NCBI GenBank assembly: GCA_021498125.1
Contig: JAIZWL010000001.1
Coordinates: 197,434-261,433 of the forward strand
Length of the DNA stretch: 64,000 bases
Direction: 5' to 3'
Source: Candidatus Thorarchaeota archaeon
GTDB lineage: Archaea; Asgardarchaeota; Thorarchaeia; Thorarchaeales; Thorarchaeaceae
The stretch's first letter is position 1. The number at the start of each line of letters is the position of its first letter. Made by a program: the position numbers and the translations under genes. The notes below the pieces were generated by a model. It saw only the letters and a list, made by a program, of their open reading frames with translations, ran no database searches and had not been told where the DNA came from. Of this stretch, positions 15,038 to 31,742 are shown in pieces.

Positions 15038-15907
15038 CTATAACATCTCCTTGAGCAGTCGTGGGATGTCGCTAGGTCTGTCAGCAACACGGACGCCTGC
15101 ATCATTGAGCGCCTTTATCTTGGCAGCAGCGGTACCTGAGCTTCCACTGATGATGGCTCCCGCATGTCCCATTCTCTTACCTGGTGGTGCGGTCCTGCCC
15201 GCAATGAAACCGACGACAGGAATGTCCACATGTTCCTTGATGTAGGCTGCTGCACGTTCTTCAGCATCGCCACCAATCTCACCTACCAAGACCATTGCCT
15301 TGGTGTGTGGGTCTTTCTCGAAGATCTGAACCGCTTCAACCGTGGTGAGTCCTACACAAGGGTCTCCACCGAGGCCGATGGCTGTTGTTATGCCGATGCC
15401 TGCATTCGTCATTCCGGCGGCGATCTCATAGGTGAGAGTACCGCTTCGTGACATGAGTGCGGCAGGGCCATCCGCAAAGACATGACCTGGCATGATGCCC
15501 AGTTTCTGTTTTGCGCTTGGGGTGATGATTCCTGGTGTATTGGGGCCGATTATGGTGATGCCTTTCCTTGCTGCTGCATGGATGACCTGGATTTCATCTT
15601 TTACGGGTACATGTTCTGTGATGATCACAACAGGGTTGAGATCAGCCGCGATGGCCTCTAGTGCTGCATCTCCAGCAAATGGGGCTGGTACAAAGATAAC
15701 TGAGGCGGTCGCATCATGAGCTTCCTTCGCCTCTCTAACGCTATCATAGACGGGAAGTCCATTGACCTCAGCACCACCCTTTCCCGGAGTGACTCCCGCA
15801 ACAATCTTGGTGCCATACTCAAGCATGGCCGCGGAGTGAAATGTTCCCTGTGATCCAGTAATTCCTTGGACTATTATACGAGTGTCTTTGTCTACAAGTA
15901 CCGCCAT
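15038..15907 (-). CDS. sucD: Succinyl-CoA synthetase (ADP-forming) alpha subunit
   Basis: IIVQGITGSQGTFHS CoA-binding start and catalytic His region; 289 aa; immediately downstream of sucC. Confidence 0.9.
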   Translation of the reverse strand: MAVLVDKDTRIIVQGITGSQGTFHSAAMLEYGTKIVAGVTPGKGGAEVNGLPVYDSVREAKEAHDATASVIFVPAPFAGDAALEAIAADLNPVVIITEHVPVKDEIQVIHAAARKGITIIGPNTPGIITPSAKQKLGIMPGHVFADGPAALMSRSGTLTYEIAAGMTNAGIGITTAIGLGGDPCVGLTTVEAVQIFEKDPHTKAMVLVGEIGGDAEERAAAYIKEHVDIPVVGFIAGRTAPPGKRMGHAGAIISGSSGTAAAKIKALNDAGVRVADRPSDIPRLLKEML

Positions 15908-17053
15908 CTATGAGACCTCCTTCACGAGTTCGACCACCTTTGAGGCAGCCTCCTCCATTGTACTGAGGAATGGAATTCCTGCGTCATTGAGAATCTTCTG
16001 GCCCTCTTCCTCATTCGTTCCGACCATTCTGATGACCATCGGTACATTGATTCCCTTTTCCTTACGGGCAGTCACAATCCCTTTTGCGACCTCATCGCAC
16101 CGAGTGATTCCACCCATGATGTTGATCAGGATGGCCTTGACCTTGGGATACATCAGAGCGATCTCAATTCCCTGAGATACACGTTCGGCGTCGGCACCAC
16201 CGCCAAGGTCCAGAAATGTGCTTGCCTTACCACCATGTAGTGATACTGCATCAAGAGTTGCCATAGTCAGTCCTGCACCGTTACAGATGCACGCGATGTC
16301 GCCATCAAGTTCAACATACGCCATTCCCTCTTCTGTGGCACGACGCTCGCGTTCATTCTGTTCCACGGGCGCCCTCTTTAATTTCTCAATCAAGTCCTTG
16401 TGTCTGTATAAGGCATTATCATCGATATTGAGTCGTGCGTCAGCCGCTAAGAATCGCCCATCTTTTGTCAGGATAAGTGGGTTGATTTCGGTCAGCTCCA
16501 CGTCATACGCCTCTACAATATTCCAGAGCTTGACAAAGAATCCTGCAAGCTTGGAGATCTGTTTTCCCTTGAAGCCCATCGCAATCGCCATTTCACGGGC
16601 CTCATAGCTCTGAAATCCGAGATGTGGCTCTACATGTCTCTTGATGATCTTCTCCGGTTGGGTCTCAGCTAGCTCTTCAATGGACATGCCACCTGCTGCA
16701 CTACCAATCACAACATACTTGCGTTCATTGCGATCAATAGTGATTCCTGCATAGATCTCCTGTGCGATATCGAGTTTCTCTTCTACAAGAACTGCCTCAA
16801 CTGGCAGGTCATTGATCCTCATTGCAAGGATCTGTTTAGCGACTTCTGCAGCCTCATCAGGAGTAACTGCAAACTTGACTCCTCCTGCCTTTCCTCTCTT
16901 TCCCGAGAGCACCTGTGCCTTGACAACGACTGGTTTGCCAATCTCCTTAGCGCGTTCTTTTGCTTCTTCAGGAGTCTTGGCAACCCCGCCAGGTGGGGTC
17001 GGCATCTTGAAGGCGCGAAACACATCCTTCGCTTCATGTTCAAATAGTTTCAT
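15908..17053 (-). CDS. sucC: Succinyl-CoA synthetase beta subunit (ATP-grasp)
   Basis: MKLFEHEAKDVF..., GKAGGVKF, NGAGLTMATLD, GGGA are SucC blocks. Start set at MKLFEHE (17053), not the upstream ATG of the ORF track. Confidence 0.9.
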   Translation of the reverse strand: MKLFEHEAKDVFRAFKMPTPPGGVAKTPEEAKERAKEIGKPVVVKAQVLSGKRGKAGGVKFAVTPDEAAEVAKQILAMRINDLPVEAVLVEEKLDIAQEIYAGITIDRNERKYVVIGSAAGGMSIEELAETQPEKIIKRHVEPHLGFQSYEAREMAIAMGFKGKQISKLAGFFVKLWNIVEAYDVELTEINPLILTKDGRFLAADARLNIDDNALYRHKDLIEKLKRAPVEQNERERRATEEGMAYVELDGDIACICNGAGLTMATLDAVSLHGGKASTFLDLGGGADAERVSQGIEIALMYPKVKAILINIMGGITRCDEVAKGIVTARKEKGINVPMVIRMVGTNEEEGQKILNDAGIPFLSTMEEAASKVVELVKEVS

Positions 17054-17128: not shown

Positions 17129-19339
17129 TCACATATTGTGTGACTCTAATAATTTCATCAAATTGTTGTGGAGTGATAGAGCCTCTCGACTGAGACCTTG
17201 CCTTGCCTCCTTGCTCATTAAACGAAGTAGAATTGTATTGATGTATTGGACCTCCTCAATCACATTCTCAACTAGGCCGGGCAGGTCGTCCCTAGTGATG
17301 AGGTCTGCAAAATCCTCGGCTGGGAGATGCTCTATCACGTGCTCGATGATCTCCTGAGGTATCCCTGTACGTGCTGCTGCAATGTCGCTGAGTATCTTCT
17401 TGAGACCGCTTCTCTGCTTCCTAATTGCGTTCAGTACTCGTTTTGCATCAGCAACAGGGACTCCTAACATCACCACATCTCTTCCAAGTCTAGTACAACG
17501 GGTCGTTCCACGTTCTCTTCTTATGAGGCCTGCCCGTTCAAGTTCGTCAAGAAGTCCCAGCCCTCGTAGAGCCTGTTGAATTACCGATGCTGCATAGGGC
17601 TTGGTCTCCTCTTCGCGGAGTGCAAATGTTGCAAACTTCACCAGATGTTTACAAAGTCTATGCTTACTTATTCCCTGATACTTCCATGACTCGCAAGAAC
17701 AGGAAACTCCTTCATCTGCCTTTAGTGCAACATAATGCCATAGCTCACGCGTACCACTATGGACTAACCCCTCGATCTTTGTGGGTGTGACCGAAACGAG
17801 CTTGACCGAAGAATCAGGAATCGCTTTTGCACGCTTGATAGTGGAGTTGGTAGCTCTGAGAGTAATAAGGGTTTCAGCACGCACTTCTCCTCCTGCCTCC
17901 GTCTGTTGTTGAATATTTGTGACTCGGTTGCTCTCAGCCCAATAGGTATGGCCAAGTATGGCAAAGGGGGAGTCAGCAGGTTCCTCACCTTGGCACATCT
18001 GGCTCAGAATGAGATCCTGTGCATTCTCAGGGTCGTCCATCGAGCTATCGACTTCTCCCAGTTGAGGCAAGATCCCCTCCTCACCTCTCACAAAGAATTT
18101 CCCTAACACTCTTTGGCGTTCGGACTCGTTATCTACGACCACAATTCCAAAACCTTCTGTATCTGCACCGCTCCGTCCTGCCGAGTACAAGACCTCTGAG
18201 AGTTGCCATTCTGTGAGCATAGTCAGTTCTTCATCATCAGATAGATCGCTGCCTAGGTTCTGCATGAAGACTCCTATCACGAAGACCAATGATGCTCTGA
18301 GGCCGCTCGCAATTGCAAATCTTATGGGCATGATCAGAACAGGAATTCTCTCCTCCTCCCAAGCAAGCGAGATCTCTCTTCTCTGAGACCTTGGAACCCC
18401 TTCATGGAGAAAGCCTATCCCTCTTTGTAAGGTACTCGTTAATTTTTCTGTGAGGTTGCTTTCTGGGAATGTTTGACTGATGATGTGTGCAATACTTCGA
18501 AGATCATCTTGTTTTTCTGGCATGATTCTCAGATCTAAGCTTGGTCCTGGTTCTTCGCTCAGGCCTGCGAGTTGGAGTGCTATTCTCTCACATGTGTTGA
18601 TGTTTGAGCAAAGAATCATTATCTGGCCCTGTTTATACTGAGCAAACTCTGTAAGATCTATAATGGACTCGTTAATACTCTCAAAGGCTTTCACACTAAA
18701 TATGCGTCTGACTCTAGATATTCTATCCTCTACTATCTCTGCATCGAGCCACCTGCTCAAATCATCCAGATCAGCCACTTGTGGGAGAATTGCAATGAAT
18801 TGAGGATTTGGAGAATGAATCTTCATGGTCACAAGAGCATTCTCAAGACGTGCCCCAATCCAAGGGTCTCCTATTAGATCAAGTCGTTCTACAAGAACGC
18901 TCTGGACTCCCTCTAGAATTTCGGGATGGCTGCGTAATGCTATAGTGAATGATTTGAACGATGCAATGATGAGTCGTCCTCTCTCCCACTCTGCACGAGT
19001 TGCTGTCTTCCGTCGTGCGATTAATGTTGTTTCAATTCCTAATTTATGACATATAGGTTTCACGGCACGTAACCGTTTTTCAACAAGATGTGGGTTGGGA
19101 CAGAGGATAATCCCCCGAGCTCTGATATCCATGGCCAGTGTGTTGAGTACTGCAAACTCGGCGATATCATAGGCCTCGTCATAATCATAAGTCACAAGCA
19201 ATTGGCTCTTCCCGCGGAACAAGCCACCCTCCAATGCACTCTTTTGAAACTCTGTCAGAGCTGTATATCCCTGTCTGCGAAGAATCTCTAGAAGGCGTGG
19301 GGATACCTGTTCGTATTCGAGTTCCGCTAGCGTGCTCAT
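17129..19339 (-). CDS. Hel308/Ski2-like superfamily-2 helicase paralog with degenerate ATPase motifs (predicted inactive pseudo-helicase), plus a C-terminal winged-helix-like region and SWIM zinc finger
   Basis: Aligns with Hel308 across RecA1/RecA2, but Walker A PTASGKT is replaced by YDYDEAY, DEVH by ERLD and SAT by ILP. The IGFLHEGVPRSQRREIS and YSAGRSG(ADTEG) RecA2 motifs are retained. C-terminal CSCESWKYQGISKHRLCKH fits the SWIM CxCxnCxH pattern. Start set at MSTLAELEYEQ (19339). Confidence 0.65.
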   Translation of the reverse strand: MSTLAELEYEQVSPRLLEILRRQGYTALTEFQKSALEGGLFRGKSQLLVTYDYDEAYDIAEFAVLNTLAMDIRARGIILCPNPHLVEKRLRAVKPICHKLGIETTLIARRKTATRAEWERGRLIIASFKSFTIALRSHPEILEGVQSVLVERLDLIGDPWIGARLENALVTMKIHSPNPQFIAILPQVADLDDLSRWLDAEIVEDRISRVRRIFSVKAFESINESIIDLTEFAQYKQGQIMILCSNINTCERIALQLAGLSEEPGPSLDLRIMPEKQDDLRSIAHIISQTFPESNLTEKLTSTLQRGIGFLHEGVPRSQRREISLAWEEERIPVLIMPIRFAIASGLRASLVFVIGVFMQNLGSDLSDDEELTMLTEWQLSEVLYSAGRSGADTEGFGIVVVDNESERQRVLGKFFVRGEEGILPQLGEVDSSMDDPENAQDLILSQMCQGEEPADSPFAILGHTYWAESNRVTNIQQQTEAGGEVRAETLITLRATNSTIKRAKAIPDSSVKLVSVTPTKIEGLVHSGTRELWHYVALKADEGVSCSCESWKYQGISKHRLCKHLVKFATFALREEETKPYAASVIQQALRGLGLLDELERAGLIRRERGTTRCTRLGRDVVMLGVPVADAKRVLNAIRKQRSGLKKILSDIAAARTGIPQEIIEHVIEHLPAEDFADLITRDDLPGLVENVIEEVQYINTILLRLMSKEARQGLSREALSLHNNLMKLLESHNM

Positions 19340-19548
19340 TCCTATCTCCAAGCTAACTATGGTTAGCTTAACGCCTAATAGTCTTTTGTACCAATTATAC
19401 AATGCCCTGGTGTGAGTTGTTTGTGTTTTTCCAATCAAGTGATTATTACGTAGACGCATATACAAGTACAAAAGGGATTTAGTTTCCGATAATATTGGCG
19501 AGTTCTTAGAATACTGGTCAAGCTCGTCGATATAGAGGTCTGAGCGAA

Positions 19549-20283
19549 ATGGCTTTCGTAGCAACTAAAGACTCAGGATTTGAGATTATTCTGAAAGACG
19601 GTTTTAAGATTCCTCCGGGTTCGACCTTTATCTGTGGTTTTCATGGACTTGGTGAGGTCGGGTTTCTGAGCACTGCACATCTCACACGTGCATTAGACGC
19701 CCGTAGAGTCGGTTTCATCAAGACAGATATGCTTCCTCTGTTTGTATCAATGGAGAATGAAAAACTGGTTCTCCCCTTTGAACTGTATTCATACGAGAAC
19801 TTCATCTTTCTCGTGCCACGGTTTCAACCACATCAGTCCGAACAGTGGCAATTTATTGATCGTATTGCCCGATGGATTGTTGAAAACAAGTTTGAAGAGA
19901 TTCTCCTGCTTGGTGGTCTGGATGCCAGCTTTAAGGAGGATGATGAGGACATGCGCTGTGTTCCGACAACAGCATACAAAGATCGTTTGGACAAGTGGTC
20001 TATCCCTCTTCTTGAGGAAGGTCTATTCGTTGCAGGGCCATTAGCTCTTCTGCTTGCAGAGCTGGAGATGCGTGATTATCCCGGTCTTGGACTTTTGACT
20101 TATGCCACACGCGGCCGTCCTGATCCACGTTCTGCTGCAACCATGTTGCAAAAGATAAACAGTGTATATGGTCTAGATGCCAGCGTTGATCAGTTGCTTG
20201 AAGAGAGCAAGGAGATTGAGCGTCTGGAGAAGATGCGCAAGTCAATTGAGTCTGATGATCGTTCAACAGATATGTTCGTCTAG
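19549..20283 (+). CDS. PAC2-family protein (archaeal proteasome assembly chaperone-like, PbaB/PAC2)
   Basis: ICGFHGLGEVGFLSTAHL N-terminal glycine-rich signature and ~240 aa length are typical of the archaeal PAC2 family. Confidence 0.65.
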   Translation: MAFVATKDSGFEIILKDGFKIPPGSTFICGFHGLGEVGFLSTAHLTRALDARRVGFIKTDMLPLFVSMENEKLVLPFELYSYENFIFLVPRFQPHQSEQWQFIDRIARWIVENKFEEILLLGGLDASFKEDDEDMRCVPTTAYKDRLDKWSIPLLEEGLFVAGPLALLLAELEMRDYPGLGLLTYATRGRPDPRSAATMLQKINSVYGLDASVDQLLEESKEIERLEKMRKSIESDDRSTDMFV

Positions 20284-24956: not shown

Positions 24957-27900
24957 ATGACAGCCGCCACAATAACTCCAAGGCGTAAGATGGGTTTGAC
25001 TACAATTCTTGGTACAGTTGCTGTTATTGCGATGCTTATGTGGGGTACGGTCGTCTTCTTTCAGATTCAGACGGGGAACGTTAGGACTGAGATCCCCCAT
25101 GAGCGGTACAGCGATGTAGTTCCATGGCCCTACAACATCAACTGGGGCGGTTCGTCTACTAATTGGTTTGATAACATGGACTATAATCAACTCCCTCTCA
25201 ATCAGACATTACCCGATGATCTTCTAGAGCATCTTAATGACGTTATGTTTATCGAGTCACCCACAGAGCCGGTTCAGTTGTGGCGTTATGATGCTTACGA
25301 CGAATATACAGGTTCATCTTGGCAGAAGACTGATGCGGCAATGAGTAATGTGACTCTAAACCTGATAACCCGCTCAGAGGCTGAGGCACTAGGCAATACG
25401 ATTTACACCGTCTACCTGAATGTTACAGCGGGCCCAAATGTTGGAGCGGTTCGACTGCCCACATTATTTCCAGATGCGCTCATTATCCAAGACTCTTTTG
25501 TGACTGGCCAGATCGAGGATGGCCATTTTCAAGTTGATACTCCCTCCCGTCTGTTGAATTACGATCTATCTCTTGACGCGCTTGGCGTTGTACAGTTCCG
25601 TCCACTTCTCTCAGCCCCCACTGGGGAGCATGTTTTAGTCGCATATGATCTCACGTTCAGAAGTCAGGATCTCTCGTCAATAGCAGATAACTCTCTACGT
25701 GGTGATAGCTCACCCCCAGACATCTGGGCCATGTATGGGCCCTCCACTCTGGATGGTATTGACTTTACACAGCGCGTAATCGATAACATCTCACAATTTG
25801 AAGACTCTTCAGCGACCGCATTTCAGACAGCAACAACAGTGGCAACCTATTTCCAGACCAAGTTCAAACTGATAATGAATGCCTCTGAATATAATATCCG
25901 CCCCGAGGAAGGTCGAGAAACGACCGATTGGTTCCTCGAACGTGGTGGTGGACTGCCGATGGATTTTGCCAGCTCGTATTGTGTGTTCATGAGACATCTT
26001 GGTATTCCTGCTAGGTATGTTGCAGGATTTGCAGTTGGTGATGATCTTGGTGGCTATAGGGCCCTAAAGGTCCTGCATATGACCTTCTGGGCGGAGGTCT
26101 ATATTCCAACATCCAGCACAACTGGTGAATGGGTACAGATATTGCCACTACCACTGCCCTCTGGCTCCGGGACCGAGATTCCCATGAACACGCCGGGTGA
26201 ACTCAAGCTATATACTTGGGCAAACACTCCTCAGGGCTGGGTGGTCACTGGTGATGATTTTGTGATCAGTGCCCTGTTATTATCTGGTGGTGTCCCAGTT
26301 TCAGGGCAGCAGATCACTTTCCGCGATAACACCGACAATCACTTGATGGGGACCGCCATCATTGAGCAGGGTACTTTCCTACCCTTGGCAAATCTGACAT
26401 ATGCCTATCCTGACGATGCGACACCTGGTCTCCATAATATCTCTGCTATCTTTCAGGGCCCCACAGAACAGGTTGAGAACTTTACATACGTGTACGTTGT
26501 GGCACAACCTAATCCTTATTCTCCGAATGGCCCCTCCTCCCCACAATTTACTCTCAGTGAAACATATGATGTGGATCTTAGCCTAGGTCTAGACGACTAT
26601 GTTGCCTATTGGGATGACATCTTGCACGTTCATGGGGTCATGACCGTGGGTGGTGATCCTGTAGATGGCACGACCCTAAATAATGACCAGATTCGTATCA
26701 TGTGGGACGACTACTTCATGGGTAATGCGACCATTCAATCGGATGGTTCGTATGAACTGGACATTCCTCTAGACCCCTCAGATCATGTTCGAATGACTGT
26801 TGGAACACATGAGGTATGGTCGGAATATCTTGGTGAGTACAATTCTCAGGGCATTCCTATCTTATTACCCGCCCGATCCGCTGATAATTCGACTGTCGAC
26901 TTACAAGGTAACATTGCGCTTACGCTCACAGCGACGCCTTCTCCAGTGGCTCGTGGGGGTACCCTGCATTATGACGGTATTTGCGAGCTACGAAATGGGA
27001 CCATTCTGGTAGGCGAGACCATTGGGATCTTCTTCGACAGTACATGGATAACAGATGTGACCACAAACAGCACTGGTGGCTTTAGCTATGATTATATCAT
27101 TCCTGTTGCACAGCCTCTGGGAACTTTTCCAGCTCAGGCAAACTGGACTTCCTCCTATACAGGTATTGCAGGAAACTGGAGCAATACGGTCGATGTGGAA
27201 GTCCAACTTAAGGCAGCTTCACTGACTATCGATTCTACTCCAAAAGATCCTGATGTAGTCCATCCTTATGAAAAGATTACAATATTCGGGTATCTCACTG
27301 ATCAGCTTAATGGGTCTGGTCTGGTTGGGCAGGATGTTGATATCTATTGGGACACCGGAAGTGGTGCTGTTAAAATCGGCACAGCGACTACTGATGCCAA
27401 CGGCTATTACGAGTTTAATTATACGGTCACAGATGCTTATTTTGGATCAGTTGATTATTGGTCAGAGTATGTATCCAGTTCTCCCTCCTATGAGGGTGCC
27501 ACCTCTCCCACTCTCTCAATCACCGTGGAGAAGTGGGCTACCGATGTGACGATTTCCGTTTCCCCGTCTCCCGCGCATCCTGCTGAATTAGTAACATTCT
27601 CGGGAACCGTGTCTGTGCCGGATCAAGGATCACTTCTCGGAAATGCTCCCGTCACTATTTGGTGGCAAAATAGTACAAGTACCTATAATCTATCAGTGGT
27701 CTTAACAAGTGCGGCCACTGGTATCTACACGTACTCATATACAATTCCTCTTAATCACGAGTTTGGAACCATCAGTTGCTGGGCCGAGTTTGTATCACCT
27801 TGGGCTGCCTTTGCGGATGATGTTTCCGATATTCGATTACTGACTATTACAAACTATACCACCCATCTGAATATCACCTCTAATTCTACCGTATACCACC

Positions 27901-30900
27901 TTAATGAGACCGCTCATATCTGGGGATCTCTTACTTTTGAGAATGGCAGTCCTATCGTCGGTCGGCAAGTGGTCTTATCATGGACAAATGCCACCGATAC
28001 GTATTATTACACACTACTGACAGATAGTCAAGGACGCTACGATTTCTATTACAACTTCTCTCCATCCAAAGATGATGTTGGTACTGTTGATGTGAGCGTA
28101 TCCTTCACATCATGGACTCGATTGCACTCTGATGCTTCAGCTACTCTTGGCACGCTTACTGTGCAATTGTTCCAAGTCGATTTGACTGCTACTCTTGATG
28201 CCGCGGAATATCATCAAGACGAATCCATTACTGTTTCGGGGACATTGACCTTTCAGCATAATGGCAATCCGCTTGGTGGGGCAATGGTCACGATATATTA
28301 TAGGAATGCAACCAAACTTATGAACTTCACAAAATACACCGATGCGACTGGCGCTTATTCATTCCAATATAATTTGACGCTTGATGATGCTCTTGGAGCG
28401 ATCTACATCTGGGCTCAGTATACCAGTACTGATCCATTATGGACTGATGCTATCTCTGCAAATAGGACTGCAACAATAATTCTGTATAGGCTCTCACTCA
28501 CAACCCAGACTAATTCAACATCATACCATCTCAATGAGACCATATGGGTCTCGGGTCGATTGACATTTCAGCACAATGGTACTGCAATAGTAGGTGAGTC
28601 AATTACGATACATATGCAATTGAGTAACGGAACTCTCCTGACATATTCTGGTTATGTGACAAACTCTACGGGTTATTATAATTTCTATTACAACTGTTCT
28701 CCAACTAAAGACAGTACGACCACAATCACGATCTGGGCAACGTATACAAGCACTCAACAGCTCTGGGATGATGCATCCTCTTCTCCTGGGGTTGATGTGG
28801 ATCTGATTCTCTATCCACTTCAACTATCACTTACTGGTCCTGCGGCAGTATATCTTGATAATTCGGTCGTGTTGACAGGGAATCTAGCGCATCAGGGCGG
28901 ATCGCCTGAGTTGACTGGGAAATGGGTGCGCATCTATCTTCTTGAAGGAAGTACTTGGACCTACTTGGGCCAGTCACAGACCGACTCTAATGGCGATTAT
29001 CAATATGTGTACACATTTACACTCAGTCAGGGCGCAGGTGATTACACTTTCAAGGCAAACTACTCTAGCACTGATCCACTGACTGCCGATGCAGAGAGTA
29101 GCCCATTCACTGTGACTGCAATGCGATATGATGTCAATATTGATTTCACTGCAAGTCCTACTACCGCAAAACTGAACGAATCAATCTTTTTCTCAGTCCA
29201 TCTCTACTTCGACAATGGTACTGATATACAAGGAGAAACAATCCTCATTCGATGGAACAATGGTTCTCTTTATACATTACATTCAGAGACCACAAACAGT
29301 ACTGGTTGGATGAATTTTGTTTTTACTGGTTTCCAGGAGCATACAGTATGGACTGGTATCACTAGTTATGGTGAATTTTCAGGTTCCCGTCTGTACAACG
29401 CCAATTCATCAGCTCACATTGCTATAACTTTGGAACAATGGGTCACAGCCATTATTGGATACAATACTACTGGTGGGAGAACAGATTACTATGTCACAGA
29501 CTGGGTAGATCTCAGTGGCGGGCTCTATTATACCGAGCCAGCACCAGATGTCCCCCTACCATCCGCCACTATCACCCTTCTCTTTGATGGAACTCCTGTT
29601 GATTCAACAGTCACACTTACTGATGGCTCTTTCTCGATCTCGTGGATGATTCCAGAAAGTACATCCCCCGGTCTACACACACTCTCGGTGGCGTTTTATT
29701 CTCCTGATAACTGGATCGCTGACTCAACAGACTCGATTACCCTTAATATTAGTGCAATCACACTCGTATGGACGTTGTTTGTGAATCCGAATAATCCCGC
29801 CTACCTGAGTGATCATCTCAATATCTCTGGAACGCTCTATCTGAGCAATGGTTCACCGTACAGTGGTGCAGCTGTGAGCCTCTATTGGGATCATCTGAGT
29901 GATGGCTTGAGTCCGCTCTTTATTAGTCAGGTCCTTACACAACCTGATGGGTCCTTCGAGTATATTTTCACTATTGATGCTTCAACAACTACTGGCTTTA
30001 CGACCGTTTGGGCATCTTGTACTCCCTCAAGCTCGTATATTGTCGGCAGTGATTCGGAAACAGTGACTATTGAGATTCTGCCAATCCCTGTTAATTTGAC
30101 TCTCACGTATTTTGATGACTCAGCGTATGTGGGTGACACAATCAATCTGGGTGGCTCGCTGCACTGGGGGAACGGTACTGGTTCGGCCATGGTGGGATAT
30201 ACAATAGCCCTCCTCTGGTCCGGGAGCCAAGTTGACTCTGTGGCCACAGATACCGATGGTGATTATGATTTCACATTTACAGTTCCTTGGGATAACTCAG
30301 TTGGGGTCATAACCTTTACAATTCAATTTGTGCGTCCTGATGCCTCTTTTGAGTCCGCAGAAGCCAGTGATTCTATCGAGATTTACAATCTTGTCACGAT
30401 CACGCTTAATCCGCAAAGAGTGACCGTCGTCTATCGTGGTGATCAACTAATTGTGAACGGGACTGTGACTAATACACATGGGCCAGTCCAAGATGTACCG
30501 CTTGTCCTATTAGTCGATGGTGCTCCCACTAGTGTGACTACAACTACACTTAGTCAAGGGGCCTTTGTACTCACCTATTCGGTTCCGAGTGATCTTCCTC
30601 TTGGCCCGCATACATTCAGCGTGAACGTGACCAATTTCTACTACGAGTTGAGTGGGGCTGTGGGCACATGGGATGTGACGGTGAAATTACAGAGTATATT
30701 GTCTGTCTACGTAGATCATACATATACGGTCACAACTGGTGAGAATTTCAGCGTCAGTATTCGGCTCACAGATTCCGATGGCAATTTAATTGCTGGGGTA
30801 GTGCGCGTCTATCTCAATAATTCCCTTCTCTCAACTGAGAATATTGATTCTGGCGCATGGGTGGTTATTGAGTTTCAAGTTCCGTCATCCATTTCAGCAA

Positions 30901-31742
30901 GTGGCTATTATGTTGTGAGTGCGGAATTCGATGGTATCGAGTCTTCATATATTGATGGCTCAACTGCTGAAGGGGAGGTACCTATTCATATCTTCACTCA
31001 AGTGGTCTTCACATCCTCTGTTGAAACAGTTCAGGTGGCGGGATCACAACTCGTCATTAGTGGACAACTCACTGACGACTCGCCAAATGCAATTCCTATT
31101 GTTGGACGTAGGCTCACGATAGCTGTAAATGGGACCACTTACACAGCAACAACAGGTGATGATGGTTCTTTCTCAGTAGTGATAGCTCCTCGAACGGTTG
31201 TGGGTATCTATGAGGTTTCTATTGAAGTTCCAACTGAAACGAATCCTATTTCAGTTTCAAGATTTACGATCCAAGTTCAAGCTAATACAGGTGGTAATAT
31301 GCAACTAGGTGATTTGTTAATTCCAATTACTGCTCTGGCAGGTGCAGTTATCGCGGTTCTGCTGTATCTTTACTTCGTCAGAGGTTTCTTCCATCCCTCT
31401 AAACGAGTGGGTGGTGTGGACATTCCAAGTAAGCTTCGCAACATCAAGAAGCTTGCAGATGCCGGAAAGTATGATGCTGCAGTGACTCTTGCATATCGTA
31501 CCTTTGAGCAGATGTGTGGATTGAAAACGGGCACAGAGCGTCTCAATTCTGAAACGGCTCGTGAATATCTTGACCGGGTACTCAAGTCATTGCCTCTTGA
31601 TGCTACTGCTATTGATCAGTTTGTGAATATCTATGAAGAGGCACGGTTCTCACAGCATGAGATCACACGAGGTCAGTATGAAGAAGCAGTCCGTATCTTT
31701 ACCGATCTCTATCCGCGTTTAGATGTTGGAACAACCGACTGA
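24957..31742 (+). CDS. Giant (2261 aa) TgpA-like surface protein. It has an N-terminal signal anchor, a transglutaminase-like cysteine-protease core, about 15 tandem ~100-aa Ig-like/carboxypeptidase-regulatory-like repeats rich in N-x-S/T sequons, a C-terminal TM helix and a cytoplasmic DUF4129-like tail.
   Basis: TGc core ASSYCVFMRHLGIPARYVAGFAVGDD. The repeat motif ...YHLNET...SG.LTFQHNG...G..V.I...N.T...Y.TDS.GxYxFxYN... recurs from ~aa 600 to 2050. C-terminal TM LIPITALAGAVIAVLLYLYFV is followed by a YRTFEQMCGL...AREYLDRV...ARFS tail. Confidence 0.8.
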   Translation: MTAATITPRRKMGLTTILGTVAVIAMLMWGTVVFFQIQTGNVRTEIPHERYSDVVPWPYNINWGGSSTNWFDNMDYNQLPLNQTLPDDLLEHLNDVMFIESPTEPVQLWRYDAYDEYTGSSWQKTDAAMSNVTLNLITRSEAEALGNTIYTVYLNVTAGPNVGAVRLPTLFPDALIIQDSFVTGQIEDGHFQVDTPSRLLNYDLSLDALGVVQFRPLLSAPTGEHVLVAYDLTFRSQDLSSIADNSLRGDSSPPDIWAMYGPSTLDGIDFTQRVIDNISQFEDSSATAFQTATTVATYFQTKFKLIMNASEYNIRPEEGRETTDWFLERGGGLPMDFASSYCVFMRHLGIPARYVAGFAVGDDLGGYRALKVLHMTFWAEVYIPTSSTTGEWVQILPLPLPSGSGTEIPMNTPGELKLYTWANTPQGWVVTGDDFVISALLLSGGVPVSGQQITFRDNTDNHLMGTAIIEQGTFLPLANLTYAYPDDATPGLHNISAIFQGPTEQVENFTYVYVVAQPNPYSPNGPSSPQFTLSETYDVDLSLGLDDYVAYWDDILHVHGVMTVGGDPVDGTTLNNDQIRIMWDDYFMGNATIQSDGSYELDIPLDPSDHVRMTVGTHEVWSEYLGEYNSQGIPILLPARSADNSTVDLQGNIALTLTATPSPVARGGTLHYDGICELRNGTILVGETIGIFFDSTWITDVTTNSTGGFSYDYIIPVAQPLGTFPAQANWTSSYTGIAGNWSNTVDVEVQLKAASLTIDSTPKDPDVVHPYEKITIFGYLTDQLNGSGLVGQDVDIYWDTGSGAVKIGTATTDANGYYEFNYTVTDAYFGSVDYWSEYVSSSPSYEGATSPTLSITVEKWATDVTISVSPSPAHPAELVTFSGTVSVPDQGSLLGNAPVTIWWQNSTSTYNLSVVLTSAATGIYTYSYTIPLNHEFGTISCWAEFVSPWAAFADDVSDIRLLTITNYTTHLNITSNSTVYHLNETAHIWGSLTFENGSPIVGRQVVLSWTNATDTYYYTLLTDSQGRYDFYYNFSPSKDDVGTVDVSVSFTSWTRLHSDASATLGTLTVQLFQVDLTATLDAAEYHQDESITVSGTLTFQHNGNPLGGAMVTIYYRNATKLMNFTKYTDATGAYSFQYNLTLDDALGAIYIWAQYTSTDPLWTDAISANRTATIILYRLSLTTQTNSTSYHLNETIWVSGRLTFQHNGTAIVGESITIHMQLSNGTLLTYSGYVTNSTGYYNFYYNCSPTKDSTTTITIWATYTSTQQLWDDASSSPGVDVDLILYPLQLSLTGPAAVYLDNSVVLTGNLAHQGGSPELTGKWVRIYLLEGSTWTYLGQSQTDSNGDYQYVYTFTLSQGAGDYTFKANYSSTDPLTADAESSPFTVTAMRYDVNIDFTASPTTAKLNESIFFSVHLYFDNGTDIQGETILIRWNNGSLYTLHSETTNSTGWMNFVFTGFQEHTVWTGITSYGEFSGSRLYNANSSAHIAITLEQWVTAIIGYNTTGGRTDYYVTDWVDLSGGLYYTEPAPDVPLPSATITLLFDGTPVDSTVTLTDGSFSISWMIPESTSPGLHTLSVAFYSPDNWIADSTDSITLNISAITLVWTLFVNPNNPAYLSDHLNISGTLYLSNGSPYSGAAVSLYWDHLSDGLSPLFISQVLTQPDGSFEYIFTIDASTTTGFTTVWASCTPSSSYIVGSDSETVTIEILPIPVNLTLTYFDDSAYVGDTINLGGSLHWGNGTGSAMVGYTIALLWSGSQVDSVATDTDGDYDFTFTVPWDNSVGVITFTIQFVRPDASFESAEASDSIEIYNLVTITLNPQRVTVVYRGDQLIVNGTVTNTHGPVQDVPLVLLVDGAPTSVTTTTLSQGAFVLTYSVPSDLPLGPHTFSVNVTNFYYELSGAVGTWDVTVKLQSILSVYVDHTYTVTTGENFSVSIRLTDSDGNLIAGVVRVYLNNSLLSTENIDSGAWVVIEFQVPSSISASGYYVVSAEFDGIESSYIDGSTAEGEVPIHIFTQVVFTSSVETVQVAGSQLVISGQLTDDSPNAIPIVGRRLTIAVNGTTYTATTGDDGSFSVVIAPRTVVGIYEVSIEVPTETNPISVSRFTIQVQANTGGNMQLGDLLIPITALAGAVIAVLLYLYFVRGFFHPSKRVGGVDIPSKLRNIKKLADAGKYDAAVTLAYRTFEQMCGLKTGTERLNSETAREYLDRVLKSLPLDATAIDQFVNIYEEARFSQHEITRGQYEEAVRIFTDLYPRLDVGTTD

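What the first reader, a model, noticed from the sequence alone, without database searches (positions are those of the whole stretch)
17129..19339. Hel308/Ski2-like helicase paralog with substituted ATPase motifs and a SWIM zinc finger
The protein aligns with Hel308 over both RecA domains. The catalytic residues are systematically replaced: Walker A PTASGKT becomes YDYDEAY, DEVH becomes ERLD, and SAT becomes ILP. The RecA2 motifs IV-VI (IGFLHEG..., YSAGRSG) are largely kept. The Hel308 ratchet/HhH C-terminus is replaced by a region with a SWIM CxCx13CxH finger. This looks like a nucleic-acid-binding pseudo-enzyme derived from a helicase, a class well known in eukaryotes. It sits divergently next to a PAC2 proteasome-assembly-chaperone gene. 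I am not aware of an inactive Hel308 paralog fused to SWIM being described in archaea.
Basis: partly seen in the sequence, partly recalled or inferred. Interest (0 to 1): 0.8.

Follow-up and report, generated by a model that had tools for sequence, protein, structure and literature searches.

The report
ATPase-dead SWIM-bearing Hel308-like protein
A Thorarchaeota gene encodes a helicase look-alike that has lost the residues needed to use ATP yet is under strong purifying selection; it belongs to a large family of Hel308-type helicases, so far seen only in Asgard archaea and apparently undescribed, that carry a SWIM zinc finger inside their winged-helix domain.

Summary
Window 17129-19339 (-) encodes a 736-aa protein homologous to Hel308/Hjm over both RecA domains. 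Walker A PTASGKT is YDYDEAY, DEIH is ERLD, SAT is LPQ, and the first arginine of motif VI is lost. A CxCx13CxH SWIM finger lies at residues 547-565.

- The protein is not decaying. Orthologs fill at least 120 clusters, nearly all labelled Thorarchaeota. None has the Walker lysine, and motif II Glu is Arg in 121/121. dN/dS is 0.06, and gene order is conserved.
- The SWIM finger does not replace the C-terminus. It is a ~110-residue insertion inside the winged-helix domain. A shortened ratchet domain follows, and only the terminal HhH domain is missing.
- The SWIM insertion is not special to the dead protein. It defines a large family whose named members are all Asgard, almost all with intact GKT/DExH motifs. 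The Thorarchaeota clade is an inactivated branch, and Odin/Hod/Ran relatives show intermediate decay.

Most likely it is a non-catalytic nucleic-acid- or partner-binding scaffold centred on the SWIM/winged-helix module. The actual function is unknown. I could not establish whether an active paralog sits in the same genomes. I found no published description.

The parts
17129..19339 (-). Complete CDS, 736 aa plus stop: ATPase-dead SWIM-bearing Hel308-like protein
   Evidence: ORF. Orthologs begin at the same Met. dN/dS 0.059 against the 92%-identical ortholog in L064.
18725..19339 (-). RecA1-like domain (residues 1-205) with degenerate motifs I, II and III; Q-motif Gln32 kept
   Evidence: Aligned to Hjm/Hel308. 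Secondary structure from the AF2 model. dN/dS 0.06.
19169..19189 (-). Former Walker A/P-loop: YDYDEAY in place of PTASGKT (residues 51-57)
   Evidence: HMMER alignment. Family census: D52 and E55 in 120/121; Lys position is A117/G2/S1, never K. Translation check.
18878..18889 (-). Former motif II: ERLD in place of DEIH (residues 151-154)
   Evidence: R152 and D154 are present in 121/121 family members.
18779..18787 (-). Former motif III: LPQ in place of SAT (residues 185-187; family consensus CPP)
18050..18724 (-). RecA2-like domain (residues 206-430); motifs IVa (LHEGV) and V partly kept
   Evidence: dN/dS 0.06.
18170..18196 (-). Motif VI remnant EVLYSAGRS in place of QMLGRAGRP (residues 382-390): Gln and first Arg lost, second Arg kept
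   Evidence: Census: S68/A52 at the first Arg position, R114/K7 at the second.
17918..18049 (-). Winged-helix domain, N-terminal half (residues 431-474)
   Evidence: The family profile aligns to Hjm up to residue 479 and to canonical Hel308 up to 474.
17585..17917 (-). Insertion of about 110 residues within the WH domain (residues 475-585): two helices, a four-stranded sheet and the SWIM helix
17645..17701 (-). SWIM zinc-finger signature CSCESWKYQGISKHRLCKH (CxCx13CxH, residues 547-565)
   Evidence: Translation. Pfam SWIM 16.9 bits against a cut-off of 19.6. Ligands invariant.
17456..17584 (-). Winged-helix domain, C-terminal half (residues 586-628): long helix plus beta-hairpin wing; basic (pI 11.2)
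17132..17455 (-). Shortened ratchet-like helical domain (residues 629-736); no HhH domain 5
19549..20283 (+). Divergent neighbour: PAC2-family protein. Conserved synteny, not shown to be functionally linked.
   Evidence: Pfam PF09754, E 2.2e-35. Same arrangement in four other genomes.
15038..17053 (-). Downstream same-strand neighbours sucC (15908-17053) and sucD (15038-15907), 75 bp after the stop. Conserved synteny, link unproven.

Best explanation
The gene encodes a catalytically dead but functional member of a family of Hel308/Ski2-like helicases seen so far only in Asgard archaea. The family is defined by a SWIM zinc-finger module inserted into the winged-helix domain.

Shown:
- The protein keeps the ring-forming architecture RecA1-RecA2-WH(SWIM)-ratchet.
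- It has lost the Walker A Lys/Thr, the motif II Glu/His, motif III, and the Gln and first Arg of motif VI.
- The replacement residues (D52, E55, R152, D154) are fixed in essentially all orthologs.
- All domains are under strong purifying selection, the SWIM module most of all.
- Its nearest relatives are active-looking helicases with the same SWIM insertion, and several Asgard lineages show intermediate motif decay.

Inferred:
- It cannot bind or hydrolyse ATP in the normal way, because an acidic loop sits where the phosphate-binding loop was.
- It therefore cannot translocate. It works as a static scaffold or adaptor. The basic SWIM/WH module (pI 9-11 in an otherwise acidic protein) would hold a nucleic acid or a partner protein.
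- The partner and the pathway (DNA repair/recombination or RNA/ribosome metabolism) are unknown.
For: Homology and fold.

Motif loss fixed in the clade. The Walker Lys is never K in 120 orthologs. Motif II Glu is Arg and His is Asp in 121/121.

Purifying selection. dN/dS is 0.059 overall, 0.06 in each RecA domain and 0.012 in the SWIM module.

Ortholog breadth: at least 120 full-length clusters at 50-92% identity. Gene order is conserved in genomes down to 51% identity.

Membership of a SWIM-bearing family with intact motifs:
-.
- Full-length colinear hhalign, E 8.7e-70 over 709 columns.
- SWIM ligands invariant in both groups.

Derived loss: the SWIM family is monophyletic against canonical Hel308 in an NJ tree. 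The Thor clade nests with partly decayed Odin/Hod/Ran sequences: P0126 has DETY, P0130 has DDAQ, P0131 has EECD, while the P-loop is still present in these.

C-terminal anatomy.

Charge: the Thor clade has median pI 5.9, against 8.4 for active SWIM relatives. Only the SWIM insert and WH-C are basic.

Precedents: Brr2's inactive cassette regulates the active one (cited in PMC10946056, ref. 23). Hel308/HELQ also have an ATP-independent annealing mode (PMC13623763).
Against: - No biochemical data exist. Loss of nucleotide binding is inferred from sequence only.
- No partner has been identified, and gene neighbourhoods give no consistent functional partner outside Thorarchaeota.
- I could not show that Thorarchaeota genomes also encode an active SWIM-type or canonical Hel308. 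The 'regulator of an active paralog' version is therefore untested.
- Some nucleic-acid-contacting positions are changed and the RecA domains are acidic, so nucleic-acid binding by the core may be lost as well.
- The grouping of the Thor clade with the partly decayed sequences could be long-branch attraction in a simple NJ tree.
Confidence: 0.65

Rival explanations
1. Stand-alone regulatory pseudo-cassette. [quoted passage not shown] This is a specific version of the best explanation.
For: - Same cassette architecture as Brr2/Hel308.
- Asgard lineages can hold two SWIM-type paralogs: the Baldrarchaeia proteins P0142 and P0160 have accession numbers less than 1000 apart.
- The decay series keeps the P-loop while losing motifs II, III and VI in the Odin/Hod/Ran relatives. 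That resembles the ATP-binding but non-hydrolysing Brr2 C-cassette.
- A survey reports Hel308 present in all but 18 of 42 Asgard genomes, with 13 of the 18 absences in Lokiarchaeota (PMC10946056).
Against: - No active helicase gene lies next to it in any genome inspected.
- Co-occurrence in Thorarchaeota genomes was not demonstrated. The Thor-labelled MAGs that carry active SWIM-type genes come from a data set with inconsistent taxon labels.
Confidence: 0.2
2. ATP-independent DNA-binding or annealing factor in recombination or fork repair. It keeps the annealase/clamp mode of Hel308/HELQ without the motor, and the SWIM finger contacts RadA or RadA paralogs, as SWIM proteins of the Shu/SWS1 type contact Rad51 paralogs.
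For: - Hel308/HELQ toggle between translocation and ATP-independent annealing, and HELQ binds RAD51 paralogs (PMC13623763).
- Ring architecture is retained.
- The SWIM/WH module is basic.
- In Odinarchaeia a KaiC/RadA-like ATPase gene (PF06745) lies two genes upstream of the relative P0131.
- That SWIM proteins of the Shu/SWS1 type contact Rad51 paralogs is from my own knowledge, not tested here.
Against: - The RecA core is acidic and several DNA-contacting motif residues are changed.
- No repair genes are among the conserved Thorarchaeota neighbours.
- The substrate preference of the whole SWIM family (DNA or RNA) is unknown.
Confidence: 0.15
3. RNA-binding structural factor in ribosome or RNA metabolism, a pseudohelicase like eukaryotic Utp25.
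For: - The conserved Thorarchaeota neighbourhood is rich in RNA and ribosome genes: a Nip7-like PUA protein, a NOL1/NOP2/RsmB-type methyltransferase, L40e, L38e, a beta-CASP nuclease, Alba, TruD and Pus10.
- Active SWIM relatives score as high against Brr2, ASCC3 and Slh1 as against Hjm.
- The Utp25 precedent (PMC9539457).
Against: - The neighbours lie on the other strand or are separated from the gene. This synteny does not extend to Odin or Hod relatives.
- Archaeal housekeeping genes are often clustered without being functionally linked.
Confidence: 0.12
4. Still an active NTPase or helicase that uses a remodelled, non-canonical active site.
For: - The replaced pocket residues are themselves invariant (D52, E55, R152, D154). 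The Q-motif Gln32 and the second motif VI Arg are kept. The pocket is therefore under selection for something.
Against: - The P-loop Gly-Lys-Thr is replaced by Glu-Ala-Tyr, with three acidic residues in the loop.
- The catalytic Glu is Arg.
- Motif III and the first arginine finger are gone.
- To my knowledge, no SF2 helicase works without the Walker A lysine.
Confidence: 0.04
5. Decaying pseudogene or mis-called ORF.
For: Loss of all catalytic motifs. No Pfam helicase domain passes threshold.
Against: - dN/dS 0.059.
- At least 120 full-length ortholog clusters with no frameshifts.
- Conserved synteny.
- Confident AF2 model.
Confidence: 0.01

Closest known systems
Archaeal Hel308/Hjm (COG1204; PDB 2zj2, 2va8, 2p6r)
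   Same: RecA1, RecA2, winged helix and ratchet occur in the same order. Best sequence and structure matches: E 1.9e-28 with the family profile, TM 0.65-0.74.
   Different: - All ATPase motifs are degenerate.
- About 110 residues of SWIM insertion sit in the WH domain.
- The ratchet is shortened and HhH domain 5 is absent.
- It scores 71 bits against a 1200-bit equivalog cut-off.
SWIM-bearing Hel308-like helicases of Asgard archaea (unnamed family; e.g. P0139, P0134 Jordarchaeum, P0142 Baldrarchaeia, P0283 Lokiarchaeota, P0337)
   Same: Full-length colinear alignment (E 8.7e-70), with the SWIM module at the same insertion point and the same C-terminal domain.
   Different: Those proteins keep PSGSGKT, DEIH, SAT, HHAGL and GRAGRPG and pass the Pfam DEAD and Helicase_C thresholds. 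They are basic (median pI 8.4), whereas the Thor clade is acidic (5.9).
Inactive C-terminal cassette of Brr2 (also ASCC3, Slh1)
   Same: A Ski2-like cassette that has lost unwinding activity and acts as a regulatory or interaction platform. Structural similarity is seen.
   Different: - The Brr2 cassette is fused in tandem to an active cassette and still binds ATP.
- This protein stands alone, has lost the P-loop lysine, and carries a SWIM insertion instead of a Sec63 HhH/FN3 tail.
Arch/KOW insertion in the WH domain of Mtr4 and Ski2
   Same: An accessory module inserted into the winged-helix domain of a Ski2-like helicase (stated in PMC10946056). Ski2 and Mtr4 appear among the structural hits.
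   Different: The inserted fold is different (a SWIM beta-sheet plus helix, not a stalk plus KOW). I did not check whether the insertion point within the WH is the same. Mtr4 and Ski2 are active enzymes.
SWIM zinc fingers fused to helicases (bacterial SWI2/SNF2-SWIM proteins) and SWIM proteins such as ZSWIM8 and Shu2/SWS1
   Different: In those proteins the SWIM is a terminal or separate domain and the helicase is of the Snf2 type (from my own knowledge). Here it is internal to the WH domain of a Ski2-like protein.
Other pseudohelicases (Utp25; the helicase-like domain of eukaryotic XPF)
   Same: SF2 helicase folds that lost their catalytic motifs and kept a structural role (PMC9539457 for Utp25; XPF from my own knowledge).
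   Different: Different SF2 subfamilies (DEAD-box, Hef/XPF), eukaryotic, no SWIM.

Membership tests
Hel308/Ski2-like helicases (COG1204) | Two RecA-like domains homologous to Hel308 | tested here: met
   NCBIfam Hel308 E 5e-20 over residues 7-429. PDB Hjm 4.7e-13 with the single sequence and 1.9e-28 with the profile. hhalign 1e-45.
Hel308/Ski2-like helicases (COG1204) | Winged-helix plus ratchet domains after RecA2 | tested here: met
Hel308/Ski2-like helicases (COG1204) | Intact ATPase motifs I (GK[ST]), II (DExH), III (SAT) and VI (QxxGRxGR) | tested here: not met
   YDYDEAY, ERLD, LPQ and EVLYSAGRS occupy these positions. The loss is fixed in 121 family sequences.
Hel308/Ski2-like helicases (COG1204) | C-terminal HhH/HLH domain 5 (Hel308 proper) | tested here: not met
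   The protein ends after the ratchet-like helices. It has no counterpart of the GIGRVRAR region in the canonical consensus.
Hel308/Ski2-like helicases (COG1204) | Curated equivalog score (NCBIfam NF040935, 1200 bits) | tested here: not met
   71.2 bits. Pfam DEAD and Helicase_C give no hit for this protein.
Hel308/Ski2-like helicases (COG1204) | ATP-dependent 3'-5' translocation and unwinding | not testable with these tools
   Requires biochemistry. Sequence predicts that the activity is absent.
SWIM zinc finger (PF04434) | CxCxnCxH ligand signature | tested here: met
   C547, C549, C563 and H565. Invariant in 57 orthologs and in 31 diverse relatives.
SWIM zinc finger (PF04434) | Pfam gathering score (19.6 bits) | tested here: inconclusive
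   This protein scores 16.9 bits, E 0.0047. All 57 orthologs hit at E<0.1, best 7.5e-5. The relative P0131 passes with 21.5 bits.
SWIM zinc finger (PF04434) | Beta-strands carrying CxC followed by a helix carrying CxH | tested here: met
SWIM zinc finger (PF04434) | Zinc binding | not testable with these tools
   Needs metal analysis of purified protein.
SWIM-bearing Hel308-like family of Asgard archaea (defined here) | Full-length colinearity, including the SWIM insertion in the WH domain and the C-terminal helical domain | tested here: met
   hhalign E 8.7e-70, 709 columns, residues 6-729. Insert alone E 7e-17 and C-terminus alone E 1.4e-8.
SWIM-bearing Hel308-like family of Asgard archaea (defined here) | Catalytically intact motor (GKT, DExH) | tested here: not met
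   102 of 115 relatives of P0139 match both simple patterns, and the other 13 match one. The Thor clade matches neither.
Brr2-type inactive helicase cassette | Ski2-like cassette with degenerate catalytic motifs | tested here: met
Brr2-type inactive helicase cassette | Covalently fused behind an active cassette; Sec63-type tail with HhH and FN3 | tested here: not met
   A single cassette of 736 aa with no second helicase region. No neighbouring helicase gene.

The most novel reading that the evidence does not exclude
The Thorarchaeota protein would be a free-standing counterpart of the inactive cassette of eukaryotic dual-cassette helicases (Brr2, ASCC3, Slh1). It would be a dead Ski2-like cassette that docks through its SWIM/WH module onto an active Ski2-like helicase or its substrate complex and regulates it. 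The graded motif decay in the Odin/Hod/Ran/Thor lineages would then record, in the closest archaeal relatives of eukaryotes, how an active helicase paralog becomes a regulatory pseudo-cassette.
Probability: 0.12. Interest if true: 0.85.

Novelty: new variant of a known kind. Interest (0 to 1): 0.6.

Why it matters
Two things come out of this.

First, Asgard archaea hold a large and apparently undescribed branch of Hel308/Ski2-like helicases marked by a SWIM zinc finger inside the winged-helix domain. About 2900 database proteins match one member at E<=1e-20. All 115 inspected relatives of that member carry the finger, as do most, though not all, of the closest matches to the Thorarchaeota profile. 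The most recent survey of archaeal Ski2-like helicases names only Hel308, ASH-Ski2 and Brr2-like groups, and it discarded sequences with incomplete motifs (PMC10946056).

Second, one lineage of that branch became a strictly conserved pseudo-enzyme, and sister lineages appear frozen at intermediate stages of motif loss. That offers a natural series for studying how helicases turn into non-catalytic scaffolds. This process is well known in eukaryotes (the Brr2 C-cassette, Utp25, XPF) but scarcely documented in archaea. The family also scores nearly as well against Brr2, ASCC3 and Slh1 as against Hel308, so it bears on the origin of eukaryotic Ski2-like helicases. The limitation is that no function, substrate or partner is known for any member.

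Tried and rejected
- Hidden Walker A. GGLFRGKS at residues 38-45 fits GxxxxGK[ST], but only 1 of 121 family members has it and it lies before strand beta1. Rejected.
- Pseudogene. Rejected by dN/dS and conservation.
- 'SWIM region replaces ratchet'. Rejected.
- A bona fide Hel308 in the window. None found. I scanned only four of the other large ORFs, which are an OPT transporter, a 2261-aa transglutaminase/macroglobulin-like protein, a ClC channel and a BNR-repeat protein.
- Co-occurrence with an active paralog in Thorarchaeota.
  - The single genome-contig scan with P0337 (labelled Thorarchaeota) returned mainly Promethearchaeota, Hermod and Hod-labelled MAGs and did not include the complete Thor genome CP070761.1.
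  - Labels in the JBHL MAG series are inconsistent. For example, a protein with Thor-type synteny is labelled Odinarchaeota.
  - The question stays open.
- Supplementary tables of PMC10946056 are not held.
- The afdb50 structure library was not available.
- Functional link to TCA-cycle genes. sucCD follow the gene in Thorarchaeota. Aconitase, with ACL-like genes and IDH in one case, follows the Odin relatives P0131 and P0141. The Hod relative P0126 and the Odin relative P0148 have unrelated neighbours. I treat this as inherited gene order, not as evidence of function.
- ASH-Ski2/Eta membership. Sequence similarity to 7ujb covers only RecA1, and there is no N-terminal four-Cys domain. Rejected, although the C-terminal fold is similar.
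- Literature searches for SWIM with Hel308, Ski2-like or Asgard helicases found nothing relevant.
Full report
**The gene and its neighbours**

Window 17129-19339 (minus strand) is an intact ORF. The mechanical ORF runs up to a TTG at 19564. All orthologs, however, begin at the Met at 19339 (MSTL...), which gives 736 aa. A PAC2-family gene (PF09754, E 2e-35) lies divergently 209 bp upstream. sucC and sucD follow on the same strand 75 bp downstream.

**Checking the observation: Hel308 homology**

The protein matches the NCBIfam Hel308 equivalog over residues 7-429 (E 5e-20). The score is only 71 bits against a cut-off of 1200. It also matches the solved Hel308/Hjm structures:
- 2zj2 at 4.7e-13 and 2va8 at 1.5e-12 with the single sequence.
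- 1.9e-28 with a profile of 57 orthologs.

An AlphaFold2 model built on that alignment is confident (pLDDT 85.7, pTM 0.85). Its best Foldseek matches in the PDB are Hjm and Hel308. The TM-score is 0.65-0.67 normalised to the query and 0.70-0.74 normalised to the target.

**Checking the observation: motif substitutions**

Reading the HMMER alignment residue by residue gives:
- PTASGKT of Hjm aligns with YDYDEAY (residues 51-57).
- DEIH aligns with ERLD (151-154).
- SAT aligns with LPQ (185-187).
- HHAGL aligns with LHEGV.
- QMLGRAGRP aligns with EVLYSAGRS (382-390).

The string CSCESWKYQGISKHRLCKH at 547-565 is a CxCx13CxH SWIM signature. Pfam SWIM scores 16.9 bits, just under its 19.6 cut-off.

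**Is it a decaying gene? No.**

A search of 5.8 billion proteins found 163 relatives. The best 120 are all full-length or near full-length orthologs at 50-92% identity, and nearly all are labelled Candidatus Thorarchaeota and 'hypothetical protein'.

Across these 121 sequences the substituted positions are themselves conserved:
- The Walker lysine position is Ala in 117, Gly in 2 and Ser in 1. It is never Lys.
- D52 and E55 of the former P-loop are present in 120.
- Motif II Glu is Arg in 121/121, and the His is Asp in 121/121.
- The first arginine of motif VI is Ser or Ala. The second is kept.

Against the 92%-identical ortholog (L064), Nei-Gojobori dN/dS is 0.059 overall. It is 0.06 in each degenerate RecA domain and 0.012 in the SWIM module.

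Gene order (Thr synthase, RsmB/NOP2-type methyltransferase, Nip7-like PUA protein, PAC2, this gene, sucC, sucD, L40e, L38e, beta-CASP nuclease, Alba, TruD) is kept in genomes whose ortholog is only 51-54% identical.

This is a functional protein that has given up catalysis. One apparent Walker A, GGLFRGKS at 38-45, is specific to this sequence (1 of 121) and lies before strand beta1, so it is chance.

**What it derives from**

An exhaustive profile search of 1.84 billion cluster representatives collapsed the Thorarchaeota clade to one representative. The next hits were a series of full-length relatives of about 710-990 aa that align through the C-terminus.

Most of these carry a CxC...CxH motif at the same place, and most have intact PSGSGKT, DEIH, SAT, HHAGL and GRAGRPG. 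A second search, started from one of them (P0139), returned 2932 proteins at E<=1e-20. All 115 inspected carry the SWIM signature at a similar position in the sequence. Of these, 102 match both a GK[ST] and a DExH pattern, and the other 13 match one.

Wherever a source names the organism it is an Asgard archaeon: Loki/Promethearchaeota, Hel, Hermod, Hod, Odin, Jord, Baldr, Heimdall, Ran or 'Asgardarchaeia'.

Profile-profile comparison shows:
- The Thorarchaeota clade is colinear with this family from residue 6 to 729 (E 8.7e-70, 709 columns).
- Against canonical, SWIM-less Hel308 the alignment stops at residue 474 (E 1e-45).

In a neighbour-joining tree the SWIM-bearing proteins form one group apart from canonical Hel308. 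The Thorarchaeota clade nests inside it, next to sequences from Odin-, Hod- and Ranarchaeia in which the motifs are partly decayed:
- P0126 keeps GKT but has DETY, LSS and SRAGKPKY.
- P0130 has DDAQ.
- P0131 has SGKS, EECD and GRAGNPKF.
- P0141 has DEFQ.
- P0148 has lost everything in a different way.

The loss is therefore derived, and a graded series exists. That these decayed forms are a true clade rests on a simple NJ tree and could be long-branch attraction.

**Anatomy of the C-terminal half**

The evidence says otherwise.

- Boundary of the insertion. The family profile aligns with Hjm into the first helices of the winged-helix domain, up to residue 479.
- The insertion itself. Residues about 480-580 have no counterpart in canonical Hel308 (hhalign E 0.33). 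They align with the active SWIM family at E 7e-17.
- After the insertion. Residues 595-656 align with the third WH helix, the wing and the conserved 'LG..V..LYIDP.TA' start of the ratchet domain of canonical Hel308 (E 2.7e-5).
- The rest. The remainder aligns with the C-terminus of active SWIM relatives (E 1.4e-8). Some of those relatives hit Pfam Helicase_dom4_arc.

- Many winged-helix regulators over about 80 residues.

Foldseek gives Brr2, ASCC3, Hel308 and PolQ over about 200 columns, with weak E-values.

The architecture is thus:
- RecA1 (residues 1-205).
- RecA2 (206-430).
- WH N-terminal half (431-474).
- An insertion of about 110 residues made of two helices, a four-stranded sheet and the SWIM helix (475-585).
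- WH C-terminal half (586-628).
- A shortened ratchet-like bundle (629-736).

The HhH domain 5 of Hel308 is absent. An accessory module inserted into the WH domain recalls the arch of Mtr4 and Ski2 (PMC10946056). I did not check whether the insertion point is the same.

**How it probably works**

Shown:
- The scaffold is kept.
- The catalytic residues are gone.
- The replacements are fixed.
- Selection is strong everywhere and strongest on the SWIM module.

Inferred:
- With Glu-Ala-Tyr in place of Gly-Lys-Thr and three acidic side chains in the former phosphate-binding loop, normal ATP binding is very unlikely. Translocation is then impossible. The invariant D52/E55 and R152 may pair and fill the pocket. 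I could not inspect coordinates to test this.
- The clade has become acidic (median pI 5.9, against 8.4 for active SWIM relatives and 7.1 for canonical Hel308). Only the SWIM insert (pI 9.1) and the second half of the WH (pI 11.2) remain basic.
- I therefore favour a static scaffold or adaptor. Its SWIM/WH module would hold a nucleic acid or a partner protein, and the dead motor core would act as a rigid platform.

More specific versions remain open:
- A trans-acting equivalent of the inactive Brr2 cassette.
- An ATP-independent annealing or clamp factor, in line with the annealing mode of Hel308/HELQ (PMC13623763).
- An RNA or ribosome-associated pseudohelicase like Utp25 (PMC9539457).

Gene neighbourhoods do not discriminate among these. 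The Thorarchaeota context is rich in RNA and ribosome genes and is always followed by sucCD. The Odin relatives are followed by aconitase (plus ACL-like genes and IDH in one case). The Hod relative and one Odin relative have unrelated neighbours.

**What I could not settle**

I could not establish whether Thorarchaeota genomes also encode an active SWIM-type helicase or a canonical Hel308.
It did not include the complete Thor genome.
- Labels in that MAG series are inconsistent.
- A published survey reports Hel308 missing from 18 of 42 Asgard genomes, 13 of them Lokiarchaeota. This suggests that most other Asgard genomes have one. That study also removed sequences lacking full motifs (PMC10946056).
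- Baldrarchaeia MAGs appear to carry two SWIM-type paralogs, judged from accession numbers less than 1000 apart.

**Comparison with what is known, and novelty**

Pseudo-helicases are known: the Brr2 C-cassette, Utp25 and the XPF helicase-like domain. SWIM fingers fused to helicases are also known (bacterial Snf2-type proteins, from my own knowledge). The kind is therefore not new.

What I could not find described is either of the following:
- A SWIM module inside the WH domain of Hel308/Ski2-like helicases as a family trait across Asgard lineages.
- An ATPase-dead lineage of that family.

The full-text searches returned nothing relevant. The 2024 survey and a 2026 review of Hel308/HELQ mention neither. 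I rate it a new variant of a known kind, with moderate-to-high interest (0.6). The family is large, sits in the closest archaeal relatives of eukaryotes, and scores almost as well against Brr2, ASCC3 and Slh1 as against Hjm. No function is yet known for any member.

Noticed in passing
Related proteins P0133-P0392 (not in the window); loci L002-L057: SWIM-bearing Hel308-like helicases with intact motifs form a very large family whose named members are all Asgard. About 2900 proteins match at E<=1e-20. There are two size classes: about 705-780 aa with 8-14 residues between CxC and CxH, and about 810-900 aa with 19-20 residues and a conserved CSCGFxNGISDNF...F.FEFCDH loop. The family seems undescribed.
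   Followed up: partly
P0139 against the PDB: An active SWIM-family member scores as high against eukaryotic ASCC3 (5.5e-75), Brr2 (2e-74) and Slh1 (1e-71) as against archaeal Hjm (4.9e-73). The eukaryotic scores sum two cassettes. A proper phylogeny relating this family to the Brr2/ASCC3/Slh1 branch would be worthwhile.
   Followed up: no
Window 19055-19102 and 19100-19102 region (residues C80, H84, C97 of the protein): The Thorarchaeota clade has gained invariant or near-invariant C80, H84 (in LCPNPH, the former motif Ia) and C97 in RecA1, plus invariant C449 and C615. None of these is present in active relatives. A second metal site or a structural cluster is possible. I had no coordinates to test distances.
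   Followed up: no
Window 24957-31742 (+): A giant 2261-aa ORF with a transglutaminase core, CarboxypepD_reg, macroglobulin-like MG2/MG4, Big_1 and DUF4129 domains. It is conserved at the same relative position in the related genome (L064).
   Followed up: partly
Loci L001 7132-7806 and L061 5169-5834, compared with window 19340-19548: Other Thorarchaeota genomes have a PRC-barrel gene of about 220 aa between PAC2 and the helicase-like gene. In this window, and in L064 and L065, it is absent and only about 170-280 bp separate the two genes.
   Followed up: no
Loci L063 and L067 (Odinarchaeia relatives P0131 and P0141): The partly decayed Odin relatives are followed on the same strand by aconitase (plus ATP-citrate-lyase-like genes and isocitrate dehydrogenase in L063). 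The Thorarchaeota gene is followed by sucC and sucD. The recurring TCA-type neighbours may be inherited synteny or coincidence. The relatives P0126 and P0148 lack them.
   Followed up: partly
Canonical Hel308 representatives P0207, P0214, P0217, P0226, P0239, P0241, P0244, P0246, P0247, P0249, P0256, P0262, P0266, P0267: Many canonical Hel308 proteins carry large insertions exactly within motif V (TLC...HNS) or motif VI (MC...HNC). The junctions look like inteins, and some insertions look as if they include homing-endonuclease-type regions.
   Followed up: no
Loci L007, L055, L065, L066: Taxon labels in the JBHL... MAG series are inconsistent. Near-identical long SWIM helicases are labelled Promethearchaeota, Hod-, Hermod-, Thor- or Odinarchaeota. 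A protein with typical Thorarchaeota synteny (P0073) is labelled Odinarchaeota. Distribution statements based on these labels need care.
   Followed up: partly
Window 19421-19444 (residues 38-45 of the protein): This sequence alone reads GGLFRGKS, a perfect GxxxxGK[ST] string, eight residues upstream of the true P-loop position. It is not conserved (1 of 121 members) and could mislead motif scanners.
   Followed up: yes
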